Position numbers: made by a program
Part shown: positions 1 to 64,000 of the stretch, in pieces
Layout: the number at the start of each line of letters is the position of its first letter
How positions within the stretch are numbered: the stretch's first letter is position 1
Assembly: GCF_026571515.1 (NCBI RefSeq)
Contig: NW_026865226.1
Location: 1-64,000, forward strand
Source of the DNA: Ruditapes philippinarum
Taxonomy: Eukaryota
Length of the DNA stretch: 64,000 nucleotides
Reading direction: 5' to 3'

Positions 1-3000
1 GTATGGTTGACATGTTCAGATGCTGCTCTAATCCTTGAGCATTTGTTATAAGAAGTAATTTAAAGTTTTTGAACTTTTAGCCGTTGAATTTATTTAACAA
101 ATGCACTAAGTGCATTGCATGAATGTCTGATATTTGTTGCGCATGTGCAATATTCAAAAAATCGAGTCGCGAATCGACGAGAGGAAAGCATATGTACCGT
201 TTGTTATTAATCCATCAAATAGTCTTCGCATCGTAAGATTTAATAATTTAATATTTAATGCTACAGGGACTTGCATTCCGAAGCAGAAACATTATATTCG
301 AAACTACAAAAAGCTTGCGACGATTTGATGGACGATTTTTCAGGAGCAACATCACCCCTGGAAGTGCAGGGAGCAGGTGCTCGCAAAAATGTTTCTCCAG
401 AAGAAAGACAATTATCAACTGCTATTGTTAATGCAGAAAAGTAAATTGCATTTTTTTGCTATGCAACAGTAAATGTTTTTAACCTTTTTGTTATGTGTGT
501 GTTTGAATAAAGGTCTTTCAAATGTTGTTTTCTTATCATAATAATCTTAGTACATGTAGATATGTTGAAAGTATGATGACTATAATTAATTTCAGATGAA
601 TTTCATTCCATAGTTCACCTGGAAATATAATAAAAGCTGATTTTGAAGTCATCAGCATTTTAGGTAGAGACATGATTATCTACAGCTATATACGTAAACT
701 CCATATTTTGTGAAAATGACACCTAAAAAAGAATAAAGATCTAGATCACCATAGATCACTCTTATAAAAAAAACAAAATCTAATGAATTGAATTCTTAGA
801 GTTCTATGTTAACAACAAACTATATTCATTGGCTTTGAAATTTGGAGATATTTTCGCTCTATTCTGTCTTACATTCATGTATACTCTTTATGTCCGCTTT
901 TCACATTACATGATTCACGCTTCACGAAAAATAATAATGTTTTTATCATAATTCTCTTTCGGTTTTGTTTTTCAGATTGATTAATAAGGTTTCAGCAACA
1001 CGGCGGTAAGCACGTTTAAATTGTATACAAACTCTTTTGATACTCCTTAAACGGATCGGAATAAACATAAGTTTGGTTTCACTGATTTGAGAGAGTTAAC
1101 TATTAATAAAAATACATATTTGTATTTTACCATTTTCAGCGGGATAAAGGGCATTTACAGAAAGGCAGAAAAACAAAAACAAGAACAACAAATGCAAGAT
1201 GCAGTGCAAAAGGTAGAACAACAATGGAAATCGAAGTAATCTCAAAATTACTATAAGTGCTTTTTACATAAAAAATAATTAGTTACTCTAAATATTAATT
1301 GAACACATTTATAACTAGTTTATACTATAATAACGTAGATAATATGTATACATAAATGTACAGAAACTGACAGAACCTTCAAAATGAAAGAAACATATAT
1401 TTATTATCAAATTATGATAGAGGTCTTTTTAAGAAAGTATTACATAGTCCTTACTTTTTAGCACAAACACAGGATCAGGTTATTATCATGAATTTAATAA
1501 CATTTATTTCAGGCAAAAAGTTTTTGTGATTTGCGAAACATTTTTTTATTACAGGTTTATTGACGTTATAGACTGGCTAAATACGCTGCTGCAGCAAATT
1601 TCTGACAGCAAATATGACGATAAAGTTTTTCTTAAGTCGAAAACCCTAGAGGGAAGTCGCGAGGAATTAAATAAATGCCATAATATCATTGTGGATTGTT
1701 GTAGAAAGCTGAAAAATGAAAATGATAGTAAAATGAGGTTAGAGTATTATATGTGTAAGATTTATTATTTCAATTTACTTAAATCTGTATCCACTTTTCG
1801 CTAGTTATGAAATTCATTCTATCGAAAAACTGATATTATATCTCTTAGGATTGTACTGTACACATGTACATGTAAAAGTCATGTTAATTTTCATACAATG
1901 TACATATATTTAACATTCTTTTTATAAAAATGCATCATTGATCATAATTTGAATAATGTGCTTAAATAAGAAGGCTATGATGGCCCTTGGTTCGCTCACA
2001 TAAGACACATTTAAAGAAAATGTCAAAATTCTGCAATGCGGAAGTAATACTGCCGAAATAAGACTCTAAATTAGAAACTAACAAAGCTTTCTACAATGGT
2101 GCTACTGAAAGCCTGGTTTCGTGGCATTGCCATGTTTCTTGTTAATATAATATATTACACTACTTCATTTATGATACAGGTTGTAATGTACATCATGTTA
2201 AAATGAATTTGTGAATGTTATGCATTTTGATTTATTCTATAAACAATTATTATATCAATTTATATTTTCAAGTGCCAATAAAGAAATAACATTATTACTG
2301 AAAGAAATTAAAGAATGGAATGATGTCAAAACTATCAATGAAGCTAAAGAAGATTGTAAAGATACAGATGTAAAAGCATTTCGAGAAGGTCGTTTGCAGG
2401 TACATAAATGGAAAAAAGAGTTTAAAAGGTAAAACAATTTACATTTTCCGTAGCAGTTGGTAATCAGCCACTAATAAATGCATATACGAGAATGTATAAG
2501 CCTCTTCAAATGTTTTAATCGGTTATTTACGCAATTAAAACAGCAAAGTATTGAGTGATTTAACTTAATTTTCTTACAGTAAAACTGCATTTTGTTTCAA
2601 ATAGCTTATGTAGCAGAAGCTTGTTAAGCCAATATAATGAGCATGTTTTCCATTTAATACTTTTTTACGATTATCTGAAGGGGTAACTTTTGCTTTAATA
2701 GTCATATTATTTGTGAGTCAATTAAGTTAGCAAAAAATGTTGACAATTATTATTATTATTATAGTTATTATTATTATTATTATTAAATTATTATATGGCA
2801 TGACCAAAAGTTATTTTTAAATTTATCATTTACAACATTATATTTAGAAAGACATGCAAGAACAACAGAACATATCGTAAAAAATGTAGCATAGATTCCT
2901 AATTAAGACGAACAAACATTTTTGTATATTTTTTGTTTCATTTTAACAAAAACAAACAAAGCGATAGTTTAAGCGATAGAGCAACAGTCACTGATAGTTT

Positions 3001-62300: not shown

Positions 62301-64000
62301 GGTGCCAAATTAGTCGCGTGCCAAACAACAACGTCATTTTAGCGCACTTTAAGAATGAAACGCGTTAAAATGCCGTCGTTTTATAAGGGAAATATGTGCA
62401 TAGGATGACGTCATTTTGTTATTGTTATTTAAGTTTTAAGTTCATACGCTATTGTTAGAAAATAGTTTTGGATGAAATGACTTTAATTTCCATGAACATA
62501 TATCATATTGAGGTAAACTATTTTTAATATGAAATATTATGGCAGAATATGCAAGAAAAACATATCTGACATAATATCTGACATATGTTTGCGGATGGGT
62601 GGATTTCCTCAGGACGGATACTCCGATCCGAACCTCAACATATGATATATATTATTTTTCTGGAATCCGTTTAAATGAAGGAAATAAAGAAGGAATTTGG
62701 AGTTGTGTTGCATGTTAGCCCCCTAAGTGCAAAAAGACGAAACTAATACAAACTAGATCAGCATTAAATATTTACTAAAAACAAAAGCGAATGTGACTTT
62801 AAATGAATTTGTTTAGAATTATGTCAGAAAATACTTTAAAACTATTATTTGATTTTTATTACAAAATAAAATCTGTTTTTGGATTGTAAAGAAATGTATA
62901 AAAATAAAAAAGGTTTAAACTCTTTAGTAGTTTATTAATTATTTATTTATATTAGTATTTTGTTTCACTGTTGACTGATAAAAACTGAACTTTATTTTTA
63001 TAATTATTCATAAGCTTCAGGTAAATTTGTACATTCTTAGTGTATTTTGGGCACTAAAATAATCAAAATGAATTTATTATTTCGCTGTTGTTTTAATTAA
63101 CAATGTGCAATAATTCTGTTCGAGAAAAGATATGTCAATTGGTATCATTAGTCGAGATTACTTTTAAAAAGTTAATATTCTGACACCATCTAATATTGCA
63201 CGTTTTTTATGTAATGTAATTGAAAGAAACTTAATAACCTAAACATGTTATGTTAGATACATACTAGCATATACTGAGCATGTCCAAACAAGCATACAAG
63301 GGTCAGTTCATGTTCGGAAAGTATGATAATTCTACATTATGCTGAATCCTTATATCTTTATTTTAATGATAGAAGTCTTAATATAAGCTTTTCAATAAAT
63401 TTTGTGTAGAGACACATACGTGGGGGGAAGCTTTGCGTTCAAAAGCAACAGGAATTATGTTTTATAAGACTAAGATGAATCACTAAATTTGCCTTGTTTG
63501 CTTTGTCTTCATTGCAATTTTATTTTTTAATTATTAAAGGGAGTCGGGCGGTAGAGAAGCCAAACTTCAGCAGCATGTTGATGAATTATGGAAGTTGGCA
63601 TTTGATTCTGAAAACAATAAGACAGGCCGTAATAGTGACGAAGGAAATTTGCTGAACATGCTAGAAAAAATAACACCAGAAATAAAAAAGTAAGAAACTC
63701 ACAGAATATGTCTTTTATTTGTTAATTATCCACAAACTATGTTTGTGACGCTGCATGCCCTATTACTCATCACGTTTATTTGATCCTTACTTTCAACAAG
63801 AGTCGCTCATCAGAAACCACCGTTTTCAGTGTTGGAAATTATTTTTAAATAAACTTGCTGAAAGGCAAGTCCAGCTTTTTCGTCAAGTTCAGCTCAACTT
63901 TAACTTGCCCCTCTAGTAATATAATTCACAACACTGTTTGTTTTGAAAAGTATCAAAAGTAGGCCAGCAGATATCAAATCATCAGAAATTACACCCCTGG

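What the first reader, a model, noticed from the sequence alone, without database searches (positions are those of the whole stretch)
267..63689. Every internal exon of both copies is a symmetric phase-2 cassette
Seen: 14 internal exons (174, 30, 96, 183, 156, 138, 174; 60, 66, 27, 84, 171, 195, 150 nt) are all multiples of 3 and all phase 2-2. Inference: any exon can be skipped, duplicated or lost without a frameshift. That gives a modular helical stalk that can change length by exon shuffling or combinatorial splicing. The uniformity also supports the gene models.
Basis: partly seen in the sequence, partly recalled or inferred. Interest (0 to 1): 0.65.

Follow-up and report, generated by a model that had tools for sequence, protein, structure and literature searches.

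The report
Phase-2 cassette exons in clam MIEAP genes
Two neighbouring Manila clam genes of the mitochondria-eating-protein family build their helical front halves from repeated exons that all keep the same reading-frame phase, an ordinary product of exon duplication, and one of the two genes looks decayed.

Summary
The window is Ruditapes philippinarum (Manila clam) DNA with two diverged, same-strand paralogues of the bivalve-expanded MIEAP (mitochondria-eating protein) family.

Of the 14 quoted exons, I located 11, and relatives support them. All 11 are multiples of 3 and phase 2-2. Gene 2 is RefSeq LOC132728251; its exons match the protein at 100% identity.

Four qualifications:
- The 60, 66 and 27-nt exons have no support. 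About as many such intervals occur by chance.
- The "84-nt internal exon" carries the annotated start codon.
- The "138-nt" exon is a 153-nt cassette with an in-frame stop.
- Gene 1 lacks the first half of its MIEAP domain, and its terminal exon starts in phase 0. It cannot be joined in frame, so gene 1 is probably a decayed copy. "Every internal exon" therefore cannot hold for intact family members.

The uniform phase is inherited. The exons are tandem duplicates of three module types, and their number and order differ among paralogues. One neighbouring locus has annotated isoforms that differ by exactly one cassette.

A Gmr1-like LTR retroelement sits in a gene-1 intron; I only describe it.

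The parts
267..440 (+). Gene 1 exon, 174 nt, phase 2-2. Helix, then a probably disordered stretch, then helix.
   Evidence: P0006 residues 48-102, 62% identity, E 1e-12. Splice sites and junction codon K as in P0006. The homologous part of P0006 has a non-helical stretch of about 25 residues in a low-confidence model.
976..1005 (+). Gene 1 micro-exon, 30 nt, phase 2-2.
   Evidence: Peptide LINKVSATR against P0006 LIKMVSATR. Acceptor ttttgtttttcag, donor gtaagc. It is one of 4 intervals of this length between 440 and 1555.
1140..1235 (+). Gene 1 exon, 96 nt, phase 2-2. Homologous to the start-codon exon of P0003.
   Evidence: P0006 residues 112-143, 69% identity, E 1.5e-8. Its end VEQQWKS compares with P0003's start MEEQHWKS.
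1555..1737 (+). Gene 1 exon, 183 nt, phase 2-2, module type A.
   Evidence: P0006 67% identity (E 7e-23) and P0003 60%. 33% identical to the gene-2 A exon, E 1.6e-4.
2273..2428 (+). Gene 1 exon, 156 nt, phase 2-2, module type B.
   Evidence: P0006 residues 304-357, 85% identity, E 5e-24. Related to the next exon, E 9e-7.
3034..3186 (+). Gene 1 module type B cassette, 153 nt as in the paralogues, carrying one in-frame stop.
   Evidence: P0003 76% and P0006 87% identity along the whole 153 nt, KK*ELQ against KKKELQ. Old donor gtaatt at 3187, new donor GTAAGA at 3172. The homologous block is the one skipped in isoform X2 of LOC132728252.
3895..10336 (+). LTR retroelement (virus-like stretch; described only), inserted in the intron between the B cassette and the C exon. 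Its domain order is that of the Gmr1 clade of gypsy elements.
   Evidence: Two 653-bp LTRs with 5 mismatches, TG..CA ends and a 4-bp target-site duplication ATTC. Pfam hits: SCAN-like gag, integrase zinc-binding, core and C-terminal domains, RVT_1, RT_RNaseH. Integrase upstream of RT is the Gmr1 hallmark (PMC8220671 passages).
3895..4547 (+). 5' LTR of the retroelement.
   Evidence: blastn pair at 99.2% over 653 nt without gaps.
4745..9486 (+). gag-pol coding region of the retroelement, given as one part. It is interrupted twice: one frame change and one in-frame stop.
   Evidence: Three open pieces of at least 100 aa, with one frame change and one same-frame interruption between them. Domains.
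9684..10336 (+). 3' LTR of the retroelement.
10730..10903 (+). Gene 1 exon, 174 nt, phase 2-2, module type C. It is the last stalk exon present.
   Evidence: P0007 residues 1-62, 79% identity, E 5e-23; P0001 39%; P0004 44%.
14217..14483 (+). Gene 1 terminal exon (with stop codon): the C-terminal part of the MIEAP domain. The acceptor is phase 0.
   Evidence: Pfam PF16026 profile positions 122-191 of 195, 33.1 bits, E 7e-8. 80-89% identical to five clam paralogues, all starting at 14217 right after a TAG. A phase-2 join would read C AAA TAG. It keeps 19 of 22 conserved columns.
45921..46309 (+). Orphan Cys/His-rich (B-box/ZZ-like by eye) ATG exon ending in phase 2. Possibly an alternative first exon of gene 2, or a relic of another family member. 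The ORF stays open to 46343.
   Evidence: P0113 72% and P0114 68% identity over this exon only. Donor AG|GTACGT after 389 coding nt. No Pfam family above cut-off. Relatives continue into an A-type module or a MIEAP N-half.
56105..56188 (+). Gene 2 (LOC132728251) exon, 84 nt if the acceptor at 56105 is used. It holds the annotated start codon at 56109. The donor is phase 2.
   Evidence: P0001 residues 1-27 at 100% identity. Junction codon AGA = R27.
57582..57752 (+). Gene 2 exon, 171 nt, phase 2-2, module type A.
   Evidence: P0001 residues 27-84 at 100% identity; junction TGG = W84. 48 of 56 residues helical, with a turn in mid-exon.
58258..58452 (+). Gene 2 exon, 195 nt, phase 2-2, module type B.
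   Evidence: P0001 residues 85-149 at 100% identity; junction AGG = R149. 50 of 64 residues helical.
63540..63689 (+). Gene 2 exon, 150 nt, phase 2-2, module type C. The gene continues beyond the window.
   Evidence: P0001 residues 149-199 at 100% identity. 41 of 49 residues helical.

Best explanation
The window holds part of a tandem cluster of bivalve MIEAP-family genes. In this family a conserved C-terminal MIEAP domain sits behind an N-terminal helical region. That region grew by tandem duplication of three kinds of exon: A about 171-183 nt, B about 150-195 nt, C about 150-174 nt. Each is a multiple of 3 and is flanked by phase-2 introns.

The uniform phase is inherited. Only a symmetric exon can be duplicated, lost or skipped in frame, so every descendant keeps phase 2-2. 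In the model each exon encodes the end of one helix, a turn, and the start of the next helix. Removing or adding one exon therefore keeps the helix-turn-helix rhythm.

Gene 2 (LOC132728251) is intact as far as the window shows. Gene 1 is most likely a decaying copy, for four reasons:
- It has an in-frame stop in one cassette.
- It has lost the exons for the first half of the MIEAP domain.
- Its last stalk exon (phase 2) cannot be joined in frame to its terminal exon (phase 0).
- It carries unusual residues at conserved positions.

By analogy with mammalian Mieap, the hydrophilic helical half would face water and hold partners, while the C-terminal domain binds lipid in condensates. Changing the number of modules would tune the length or valency of that half.

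Shown: exon bounds and phases, module homology, copy-number differences among paralogues, annotated skipping isoforms, helical prediction.
Inferred: duplication by unequal recombination, pseudogene status, and any function.
For: - Exon bounds and phases.
- 100% identity of P0001 to the gene-2 exons, including split-codon residues.
- Paralogue support for all 7 gene-1 exons.
- Module homology: 156 against 138 nt exons E 9e-7; A against A E 1.6e-4.
- Module strings differ among the proteins: P0001 A-B-C-B-C-C; P0003 A-B-B-B-C; P0007 C-B-C-B-C; P0006 one A, six B and two C, with one B (residues 410-459) placed by eye because the script's tiling did not pick it up.
- Isoforms differ by whole cassettes.
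- Residues 7-583 of P0001 are helical, turns lie in mid-exon, and 3 of 4 junction residues lie inside helices.
- MIEAP domain: 65.3 bits in P0001 and 79.8 bits in P0003, cut-off 27.
- 105 of 112 relatives carry PF16026, and all named ones are bivalves.
- The family expansion in bivalves is known (PMC8382680 passages).
- Gene-1 decay: the stop; no MIEAP N-half (in one search the only row touching 10905-14216 was a 30%-identity match at E 1.5); phase-0 acceptor; 19 of 22 conserved columns kept, against 20-22 of 22 in 7 controls, with two residues seen in 0 of 76 rows; no retrieved protein identical to any gene-1 exon.
- Mieap's two-part architecture and proposed role: PMC10845071 passages.
Against: - No transcript data could be examined, so actual splice-site use, skipping and gene-1 expression are unknown.
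- The isoforms are annotation models.
- The stalk has only modest model confidence (pLDDT about 50-75; the P0006 model averages 42.7 and is usable only for its secondary-structure pattern).
- The new GTAAGA donor at 3172 would keep gene 1 in frame, and stalk-only products exist in the annotation (P0006 has no MIEAP domain). Gene 1 could therefore still encode a truncated protein.
- The absence of a gene-1 protein among the retrieved hits is weak evidence. The word-indexed search missed a real relative once.
- I could not read the paralogues' own intron phases, because no eukaryotic genome collection was on hand.
- The functional analogy to mammalian Mieap is untested in any mollusc.
Confidence: 0.75

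Rival explanations
1. The uniform phase is mainly an artefact of how the first reader built the models. Choosing AG and GT sites that keep one frame open forces every exon to a multiple of 3 in one phase.
For: - The three short gene-2 exons have 6-7 chance candidates each and no homology.
- Short open AG..GT intervals are abundant.
- The 138-nt exon is a frame-preserving way round a stop.
- The 84-nt exon is extended one codon upstream of the annotated ATG.
Against: - 11 of 14 exons are fixed by outside evidence: a RefSeq protein at 100% identity with the right split-codon residues, and colinear paralogues.
- The isoform pair of LOC132728252 differs by exactly one such exon.
Confidence: 0.1
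2. The exons are a regulated splicing system: cells mix and match cassettes to make many stalk lengths from one gene. They are not merely an evolutionary record of duplication with constitutive splicing.
For: - Annotated isoforms X1 and X2 of LOC132728252 differ by one cassette.
- Five isoforms of oyster LOC105328042 show three cassettes in five combinations.
- No skip junction within either gene makes a stop.
Against: - Only one isoform of gene 2 was retrieved.
- The oyster cassettes lie in a different, non-helical part of a distant paralogue.
- Annotation isoforms may be rare or spurious, and no read evidence was available.
- Copy-number differences among paralogues are explained by duplication alone.
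Confidence: 0.3
3. Gene 1 is a working gene. It uses the new donor at 3172 and ends either as a stalk-only protein or through an exon I did not recognise.
For: - The donor GTAAGA at 3172 is strong and keeps phase 2.
- All other gene-1 exons are open with good splice sites.
- P0006 shows that stalk-only models are annotated in this species.
- The retroelement lies wholly within an intron.
Against: - The MIEAP N-half is absent.
- The terminal exon is out of phase with the stalk.
- Two residues at conserved positions are not seen in any of 76 relatives.
- No protein identical to any gene-1 exon was retrieved.
Confidence: 0.3
4. The zinc-finger ORF at 45921 is the true first exon of gene 2, which would make a zinc finger-stalk-MIEAP protein.
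For: - Same strand, an ATG, and a donor in phase 2.
- Relatives of this ORF continue into an A-type module (P0113) or a MIEAP N-half (P0117 E 4e-16; P0115 E 1e-5).
Against: - The RefSeq protein starts at 56109 and lacks this exon.
- The downstream parts of the closest relatives, P0113 and P0114, match nothing in the window.
- The linking 60, 66 and 27-nt exons are unsupported.
- The exon lies about 9.8 kb upstream of 56105.
Confidence: 0.2

Closest known systems
Mammalian Mieap / SPATA18 (Pfam PF16026 family)
   Same: Same C-terminal MIEAP domain: P0001 65.3 bits, P0003 79.8 bits. Same two-part layout, with a hydrophilic N-terminal half holding coiled coils and a structured C-terminal half (PMC10845071 passages; model).
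   Different: The clam proteins have a much longer N-terminal half of variable length, built of repeated exon-sized modules. They belong to a family of dozens of genes per genome rather than a single gene. No function has been tested in molluscs. I did not examine the exon phases of the mammalian gene.
The bivalve MIEAP gene-family expansion (Regan et al. 2021, PMC8382680)
   Same: The genes here are members. 105 of 112 relatives carry PF16026 and all named ones are bivalves. The paper's passages list an orthogroup of 807 genes, 53.1 per bivalve against 0.6 elsewhere.
   Different: The passages I saw treat gene counts and duplication nodes, not exon structure, intron phase, module content or isoforms.
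Modular proteins grown by duplication or shuffling of symmetric-phase exons (Patthy's phase-compatibility rule; spectrin-, nebulin- and collagen-type repeat genes; these examples are recalled, not tested here)
   Same: Repeated, mutually homologous exons of one symmetric phase class. Copy number varies among paralogues. In-frame skipping is possible.
   Different: The class here is 2-2, the rarest. Phase 2 is 21.07% of human introns, and 2-2 was the one symmetric class not significantly enriched in that paper (PMC3632108 passages). In the model the exon is not a structural domain: it runs from mid-helix through a turn to mid-helix.
Gmr1 clade of Ty3/gypsy LTR retrotransposons
   Same: LTRs, target-site duplication and gypsy-type integrase, RT and RNase H domains, with integrase upstream of RT (PMC8220671 passages).
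   Different: I made no phylogeny, so clade membership rests on domain order alone. The coding region is interrupted twice.

Membership tests
MIEAP / SPATA18 family (PF16026) | Full C-terminal MIEAP domain above Pfam's gathering score. | tested here: met
   Gene 2's product P0001: 65.3 bits against a cut-off of 27, profile positions 1-193 of 195. The domain itself lies beyond the window's right edge.
MIEAP / SPATA18 family (PF16026) | The same, for gene 1. | tested here: not met
   Only profile positions 122-191 of 195 are present (33.1 bits). The first half was not found anywhere in the window. Gene 1 is a fragmentary member by descent, not a complete one.
MIEAP / SPATA18 family (PF16026) | Hydrophilic N-terminal half with coiled coils ahead of the domain. 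| tested here: met
   Residues 7-583 of P0001 are modelled as helices with short turns. No coiled-coil predictor was run.
MIEAP / SPATA18 family (PF16026) | Mitochondrial condensate formation and cardiolipin binding. | not testable with these tools
   Known only for the mammalian protein (PMC10845071 passages).
Symmetric-phase cassette-exon arrays made by tandem exon duplication | Exons are multiples of 3 with the same intron phase on both sides. | tested here: met
   11 of 14 quoted exons were verified as phase 2-2. 3 of 14 are unsupported.
Symmetric-phase cassette-exon arrays made by tandem exon duplication | The exons are homologous to one another. | tested here: met
   B against B E 9e-7, A against A E 1.6e-4, C against A E 0.007. 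Repeated B and C modules occur in P0001, P0003, P0006 and P0007. The 174, 30, 96 and 84-nt exons are not repeats.
Symmetric-phase cassette-exon arrays made by tandem exon duplication | Copy number and order vary among paralogues. | tested here: met
   Module strings differ in all six proteins that carry modules; the seventh compared, P0005, has none.
Symmetric-phase cassette-exon arrays made by tandem exon duplication | Cassettes are skipped in real transcripts. | tested here: inconclusive
   Annotated isoforms differ by whole cassettes, but I could inspect no reads.
B-box zinc-finger (TRIM-like) proteins | Match to a B-box profile. | tested here: not met
   No Pfam family at E <= 0.01. Only a sub-threshold ZZ-type hit: 14.2 bits against a cut-off of 29.8. 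The Cys/His spacing looks B-box-like by eye only. Two relatives carry NHL repeats.
Ty3/gypsy LTR retrotransposon, Gmr1-like | Paired LTRs with TG..CA ends and a target-site duplication. | tested here: met
Ty3/gypsy LTR retrotransposon, Gmr1-like | Integrase upstream of reverse transcriptase. | tested here: met
   Domain order. The criterion comes from PMC8220671 passages.
Ty3/gypsy LTR retrotransposon, Gmr1-like | Placement inside the Gmr1 clade in an RT or integrase tree. | not tested
   No phylogeny was made.

The most novel reading that the evidence does not exclude
The phase-2 exons of this bivalve-expanded family, including the zinc-finger first exon, form one splice-compatible toolkit. 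Clams and oysters use it combinatorially, within loci and perhaps by alternative first exons reaching across about 10 kb. This would produce a large repertoire of MIEAP scaffolds whose helical arms differ in length and valency: diversification by cassette choice in a stress or mitochondrial-quality-control family.
Probability: 0.12. Interest if true: 0.6.

Novelty: new member of a known kind. Interest (0 to 1): 0.3.

Why it matters
MIEAP genes are among the most strongly expanded families in bivalves, yet the passages and listings I saw deal only with gene counts. If the N-terminal half is a stack of frame-compatible exon modules, that offers a simple mechanism for how the family diversified so quickly. 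It also gives a concrete, checkable prediction for isoform surveys. In addition it is a tidy natural example of the rare 2-2 symmetric class, in which the exon unit is offset from the helix unit. For annotation, it is a warning that frame-preserving uniformity can make a decayed paralogue look intact.

Tried and rejected
- A self-comparison of all 811 open segments found no paralogous exon pairs between the two genes at 1e-4. They are too diverged for that test.
- Rfam found nothing in the window.
- A Pfam scan of 235 open segments of at least 55 aa gave hits in only 5: four retroelement pieces and the MIEAP exon.
- A permissive Pfam scan of each stalk exon on its own gave nothing above cut-off.
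- A word-indexed search with the 267-440 exon alone found nothing. This was a false negative, corrected by P0006.
- I looked for the MIEAP N-half at E up to 50 and found nothing credible.
- I looked for the 60, 66 and 27-nt exons by homology to gene 1's 174, 30 and 96-nt exons and found nothing.
- Neither the fold search (0 matches at E <= 0.001) nor the sequence search (0 matches) of solved structures gave a relative.
- The P0006 fold was too uncertain for anything beyond a secondary-structure pattern.
- I first thought the junction overhang was always AG, and dropped that idea. The overhangs are AA, CG, AG, GA and TG.
- I considered an alternative phase-2 acceptor just inside the terminal exon. 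The AGs there give phase 1 or phase 0, not phase 2.
- The look-up of names for the zinc-finger relatives could not be made.

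
Full report
**What the window is.** It is 64 kb, 33% G+C, with no N and no Rfam match. A search with one exon returned Ruditapes philippinarum (Manila clam) proteins. One of them, P0001 (RefSeq LOC132728251, 796 aa), is 100% identical to four exons at 56.1-63.7 kb. So the window is clam DNA, and I took nothing in it for human. Where a full-length protein was needed, I used database proteins as they stand.

**Recovering the exons.** The finding gives lengths but no coordinates. I listed all AG..GT(GC) intervals of the quoted lengths that are open in each frame on both strands. On the + strand, in the frame that starts with one carried-over base (phase 2), a colinear chain appears whose ends match the finding's ends (267 and 63689).
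- Gene 1: 267-440, 976-1005, 1140-1235, 1555-1737, 2273-2428, 3034-3171, 10730-10903.
- Gene 2: 56105-56188, 57582-57752, 58258-58452, 63540-63689.
- All have pyrimidine-rich acceptors and GTAA, GTAG or GTTA donors.

**Outside evidence for the bounds.**
- Gene 2: P0001 residues 1-199 map at 100% identity. The split codons read AGA, TGG and AGG, which are R27, W84 and R149 of the protein. That fixes three introns as phase 2, and the donor at 63689 as phase 2 as well (AA plus the next base gives K199).
- Gene 1: the paralogue P0006 (LOC132739473) carries, in order, homologues of the 174, 30, 96, 183, 156 and 138/153-nt exons at 62-87% identity. P0007 matches the second 174-nt exon at 79%. Junction residues (K, R, K, S, S) agree with P0006 and P0003.
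- The word-indexed search with the first exon alone found nothing. That was a miss of that tool, as one search shows.
- In some searches, rows falling inside 3890-10460 (the retroelement) were not printed.

**What is not supported.**
- The 60, 66 and 27-nt exons of gene 2 could not be identified. Between 46340 and 56100 there are 6, 6 and 7 intervals of these lengths in the right phase. None resembles gene 1's homologous exons or P0006's N-terminus, and none looks like coding sequence. None of the 112 family proteins or the 20 zinc-finger relatives matches the + strand from 46.5 to 56.1 kb. Such intervals are plentiful by chance: 144 of 27 nt, 71 of 60 nt and 64 of 66 nt on this strand and frame in the window.
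- The 84-nt "internal" exon holds the annotated ATG at 56109, one codon after its acceptor. P0003 likewise starts in the homologue of gene 1's 96-nt exon.

**The 138-nt exon.** P0003 and P0006 align over 153 nt (3034-3186) at 76% and 87%. Where they have KKKELQ, the window reads KK*ELQ. The old donor (gtaatt) is still at 3187. Only transcripts can tell whether this is a rescue by a new splice site or a premature stop.

**Gene 1's 3' end.**
- The open segment 14217-14480 matches the last 70 positions of Pfam MIEAP (33.1 bits, E 7e-8) and is 80-89% identical to five clam paralogues.
- All five start aligning at 14217, immediately after a TAG that is also the acceptor AG (ttttcatag|CAA). The acceptor is therefore phase 0.
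- The last stalk exon ends in phase 2, so a direct join reads C AAA TAG.
- In intact paralogues, about 135 well-conserved residues (the MIEAP N-half) lie between these two points. A search at E up to 50 found no trace of them. The only row touching 10905-14216 was a 53-residue, 30%-identity match at E 1.5.
- The terminal exon keeps 19 of 22 columns that are at least 75% conserved in 76 relatives. Two of its three changes use residues seen in 0 of 76 rows. Of seven paralogue controls, five keep 22 of 22, one 21 and one 20.
- No retrieved protein is identical to any gene-1 exon.
- Taken together, gene 1 is probably a decaying copy. The phase-0 last intron also means that intact family members must contain at least one asymmetric exon, so "every internal exon" cannot hold for the whole gene.

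**Why the phase is uniform.** The exons fall into repeat types. Within the window, the 156-nt and 138-nt exons are related (E 9e-7), as are the A exons of the two genes (33% identity, E 1.6e-4). In the paralogues the same modules recur in different numbers and orders:
- P0001: A-B-C-B-C-C
- P0003: A-B-B-B-C
- P0002: A-B-B-C
- P0006: one A, six B and two C (A-B-B-B-B-B-C-B-C). The script tiled five of the six B modules; I placed the sixth (residues 410-459) by eye from the sequence.
- P0007: C-B-C-B-C

With phase 2 at 21.07% of introns (human RefSeq; PMC3632108, passages seen), 12 independent phase-2 junctions would have probability 7.7e-9, and even six would have 8.8e-5. But the junctions are not independent. 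Duplicated exons inherit their phase, and only symmetric exons can be duplicated in frame. The uniformity is real, is not chance, and is explained by descent.

**Skipping.** Isoforms X1 and X2 of the neighbouring locus LOC132728252 (on the same 254,785-bp contig as P0001) differ by exactly one 51-aa (153-nt) block, the homologue of 3034-3186. Five isoforms of oyster LOC105328042 carry three cassettes in five combinations. These are annotation models, and I could see no reads. No skip junction possible within either gene creates a stop: only a TG overhang followed by A would, and that pairing does not arise.

**Is it a helical stalk?**
- The AlphaFold model of P0001, made with 76 relatives, has mean pLDDT 71.9. 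Residues 7-583 are helical at pLDDT about 50-75, and an α/β MIEAP domain follows at above 90.
- Helix shares: 48 of 56 residues (A), 50 of 64 (B) and 41 of 49 (C).
- The turns (53-60, 108-121, 175-179) lie in mid-exon. Junction residues 27, 84 and 199 lie inside helices, and residue 149 lies at a helix end.
- So each exon encodes helix end, turn, helix start. Deleting one exon would fuse two half-helices and keep the rhythm.
- The P0006 model is weak (42.7), but it shows the same pattern, plus a non-helical stretch of about 25 residues in the homologue of the 267-440 exon.
- "Stalk" is therefore a loose word. The fold could be a zigzag or a bundle.
- No solved structure resembles the model, by fold or by sequence.

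**The zinc-finger ORF.**
- 45921-46343 is an ATG-started, Cys/His-rich ORF. Its closest relatives, P0113 and P0114 (72% and 68%), match only this exon. Their downstream parts match nothing in the window.
- A donor AG|GTACGT after 389 coding bases would end it in phase 2.
- P0113 continues into the start of an A-type module (E 2e-4). P0117 and P0115 continue into a MIEAP N-half (E 4e-16 and 1e-5).
- The exon therefore belongs to the same wider family system. Nothing ties it to gene 2 here, and the RefSeq protein lacks it.
- No Pfam B-box match was found.
- The names of these relatives could not be looked up.

**The virus-like stretch (description only).**
- An LTR retroelement occupies 3895-10336 on the + strand, wholly inside the intron between the B cassette and the C exon. 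That intron is 7558 nt counted from 3171.
- Its LTRs are 653 bp with 5 mismatches and TG..CA ends, flanked by a 4-bp duplication ATTC.
- Pfam finds a SCAN-like gag domain, integrase domains, RVT_1 and RNase H, with integrase ahead of RT. That order is the mark of the Gmr1 clade (PMC8220671, passages seen).
- The coding region (4745-9486) is interrupted twice: one frame change and one in-frame stop.

**What is known.**
- The bivalve expansion of MIEAP genes is in print: PMC8382680 (passages seen) lists orthogroup OG24 with 807 genes, 53.1 per bivalve against 0.6 elsewhere.
- MIEAP-domain transcripts are enriched in mussel gill (PMC5549309, passages seen).
- Mammalian Mieap has a hydrophilic N-terminal half with two coiled coils and disordered regions, and a hydrophobic structured C-terminal half. 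It forms condensates involved in cardiolipin metabolism (PMC10845071, passages seen).
- My searches listed no paper on exon phases or module structure of the bivalve family. That is no proof that none exists, and supplements were closed.
- Phase-compatible exon duplication as a general principle, and the repeat-gene examples I name, are recalled.

**What stayed unchecked.**
- No eukaryotic genome or transcript collection was on hand.
- I therefore could not read the paralogues' own intron phases, the rest of gene 2 beyond 64000, gene 1's first exon, or any splice-junction usage.

**Verdict.** Its cause is ordinary: tandem exon duplication in a known expanded family. The claim of universality fails, and one of the two "copies" is probably a pseudogene whose defects the uniform model concealed.

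Noticed in passing
window 15293-16159 (- strand), with weaker matches out to about 20284: A second, fragmentary retroelement: RT and RNase H pieces on the minus strand (Pfam RT_RNaseH_2, E 1e-15), with weak translated similarity to the first element across 15386-20284. It lies just downstream of gene 1's stop codon.
   Followed up: partly
window 16200-21100: A block of 45% G+C in a 33% window, with strong T-over-A skew on the + strand and all frames unusually open. It has no Pfam hit, and it holds 17-36-nt tandem repeats at 19864-20521. A few family proteins gave chance-level matches here on the - strand. Its nature is unexplained; it may be decayed retroelement sequence.
   Followed up: partly
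window 13752-13969: A palindromic 22/43-nt tandem array built on CGTGGCCACGA-like units, with direct and inverted copies. It sits in the stretch of gene 1 where the MIEAP N-half exons would be expected, and may be a small inserted repeat or MITE-like element.
   Followed up: no
window 27126-28336; 31798-32546; 36905-37473 with 42343-42801; 38163-38824; 41473-42132; 33033-34823: The 31 kb between the two genes is largely repeats: 109-nt, 145-nt, 181-nt and 303-nt satellites, a 22-nt array arranged as a large palindrome, and a 1.8-kb inverted-repeat structure (33033-34823). I found no protein-coding signal there.
   Followed up: no
window 58453-63539: The 5087-nt intron of gene 2 holds a 109-aa open segment (60145-60471) and several AG..GT intervals in the family's phase and size range. 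Neither P0001 nor any relative matches them, so I did not count them as exons.
   Followed up: partly
window 10713-10729, and P0007's N-terminus: The annotated partial protein P0007 starts MFFSE..., which corresponds to reading from an ATG inside the polypyrimidine tract of the homologous intron (the window reads KFMLFS just before the acceptor at 10730). P0006 ends ...EFNK and then stops. I suspect that this model runs on past a phase-2 donor into a stop at the start of the intron, as read-through would give at gene 1's 3171 and 10903 donors; I could not check this without P0006's DNA. Both suggest that annotation models in this family are sometimes cut at exon edges.
   Followed up: no
proteins P0116 and P0127 (relatives of the zinc-finger ORF): The same zinc-finger module is also found fused to NHL repeats (TRIM-NHL-like proteins). 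It therefore circulates among several bivalve gene families.
   Followed up: no
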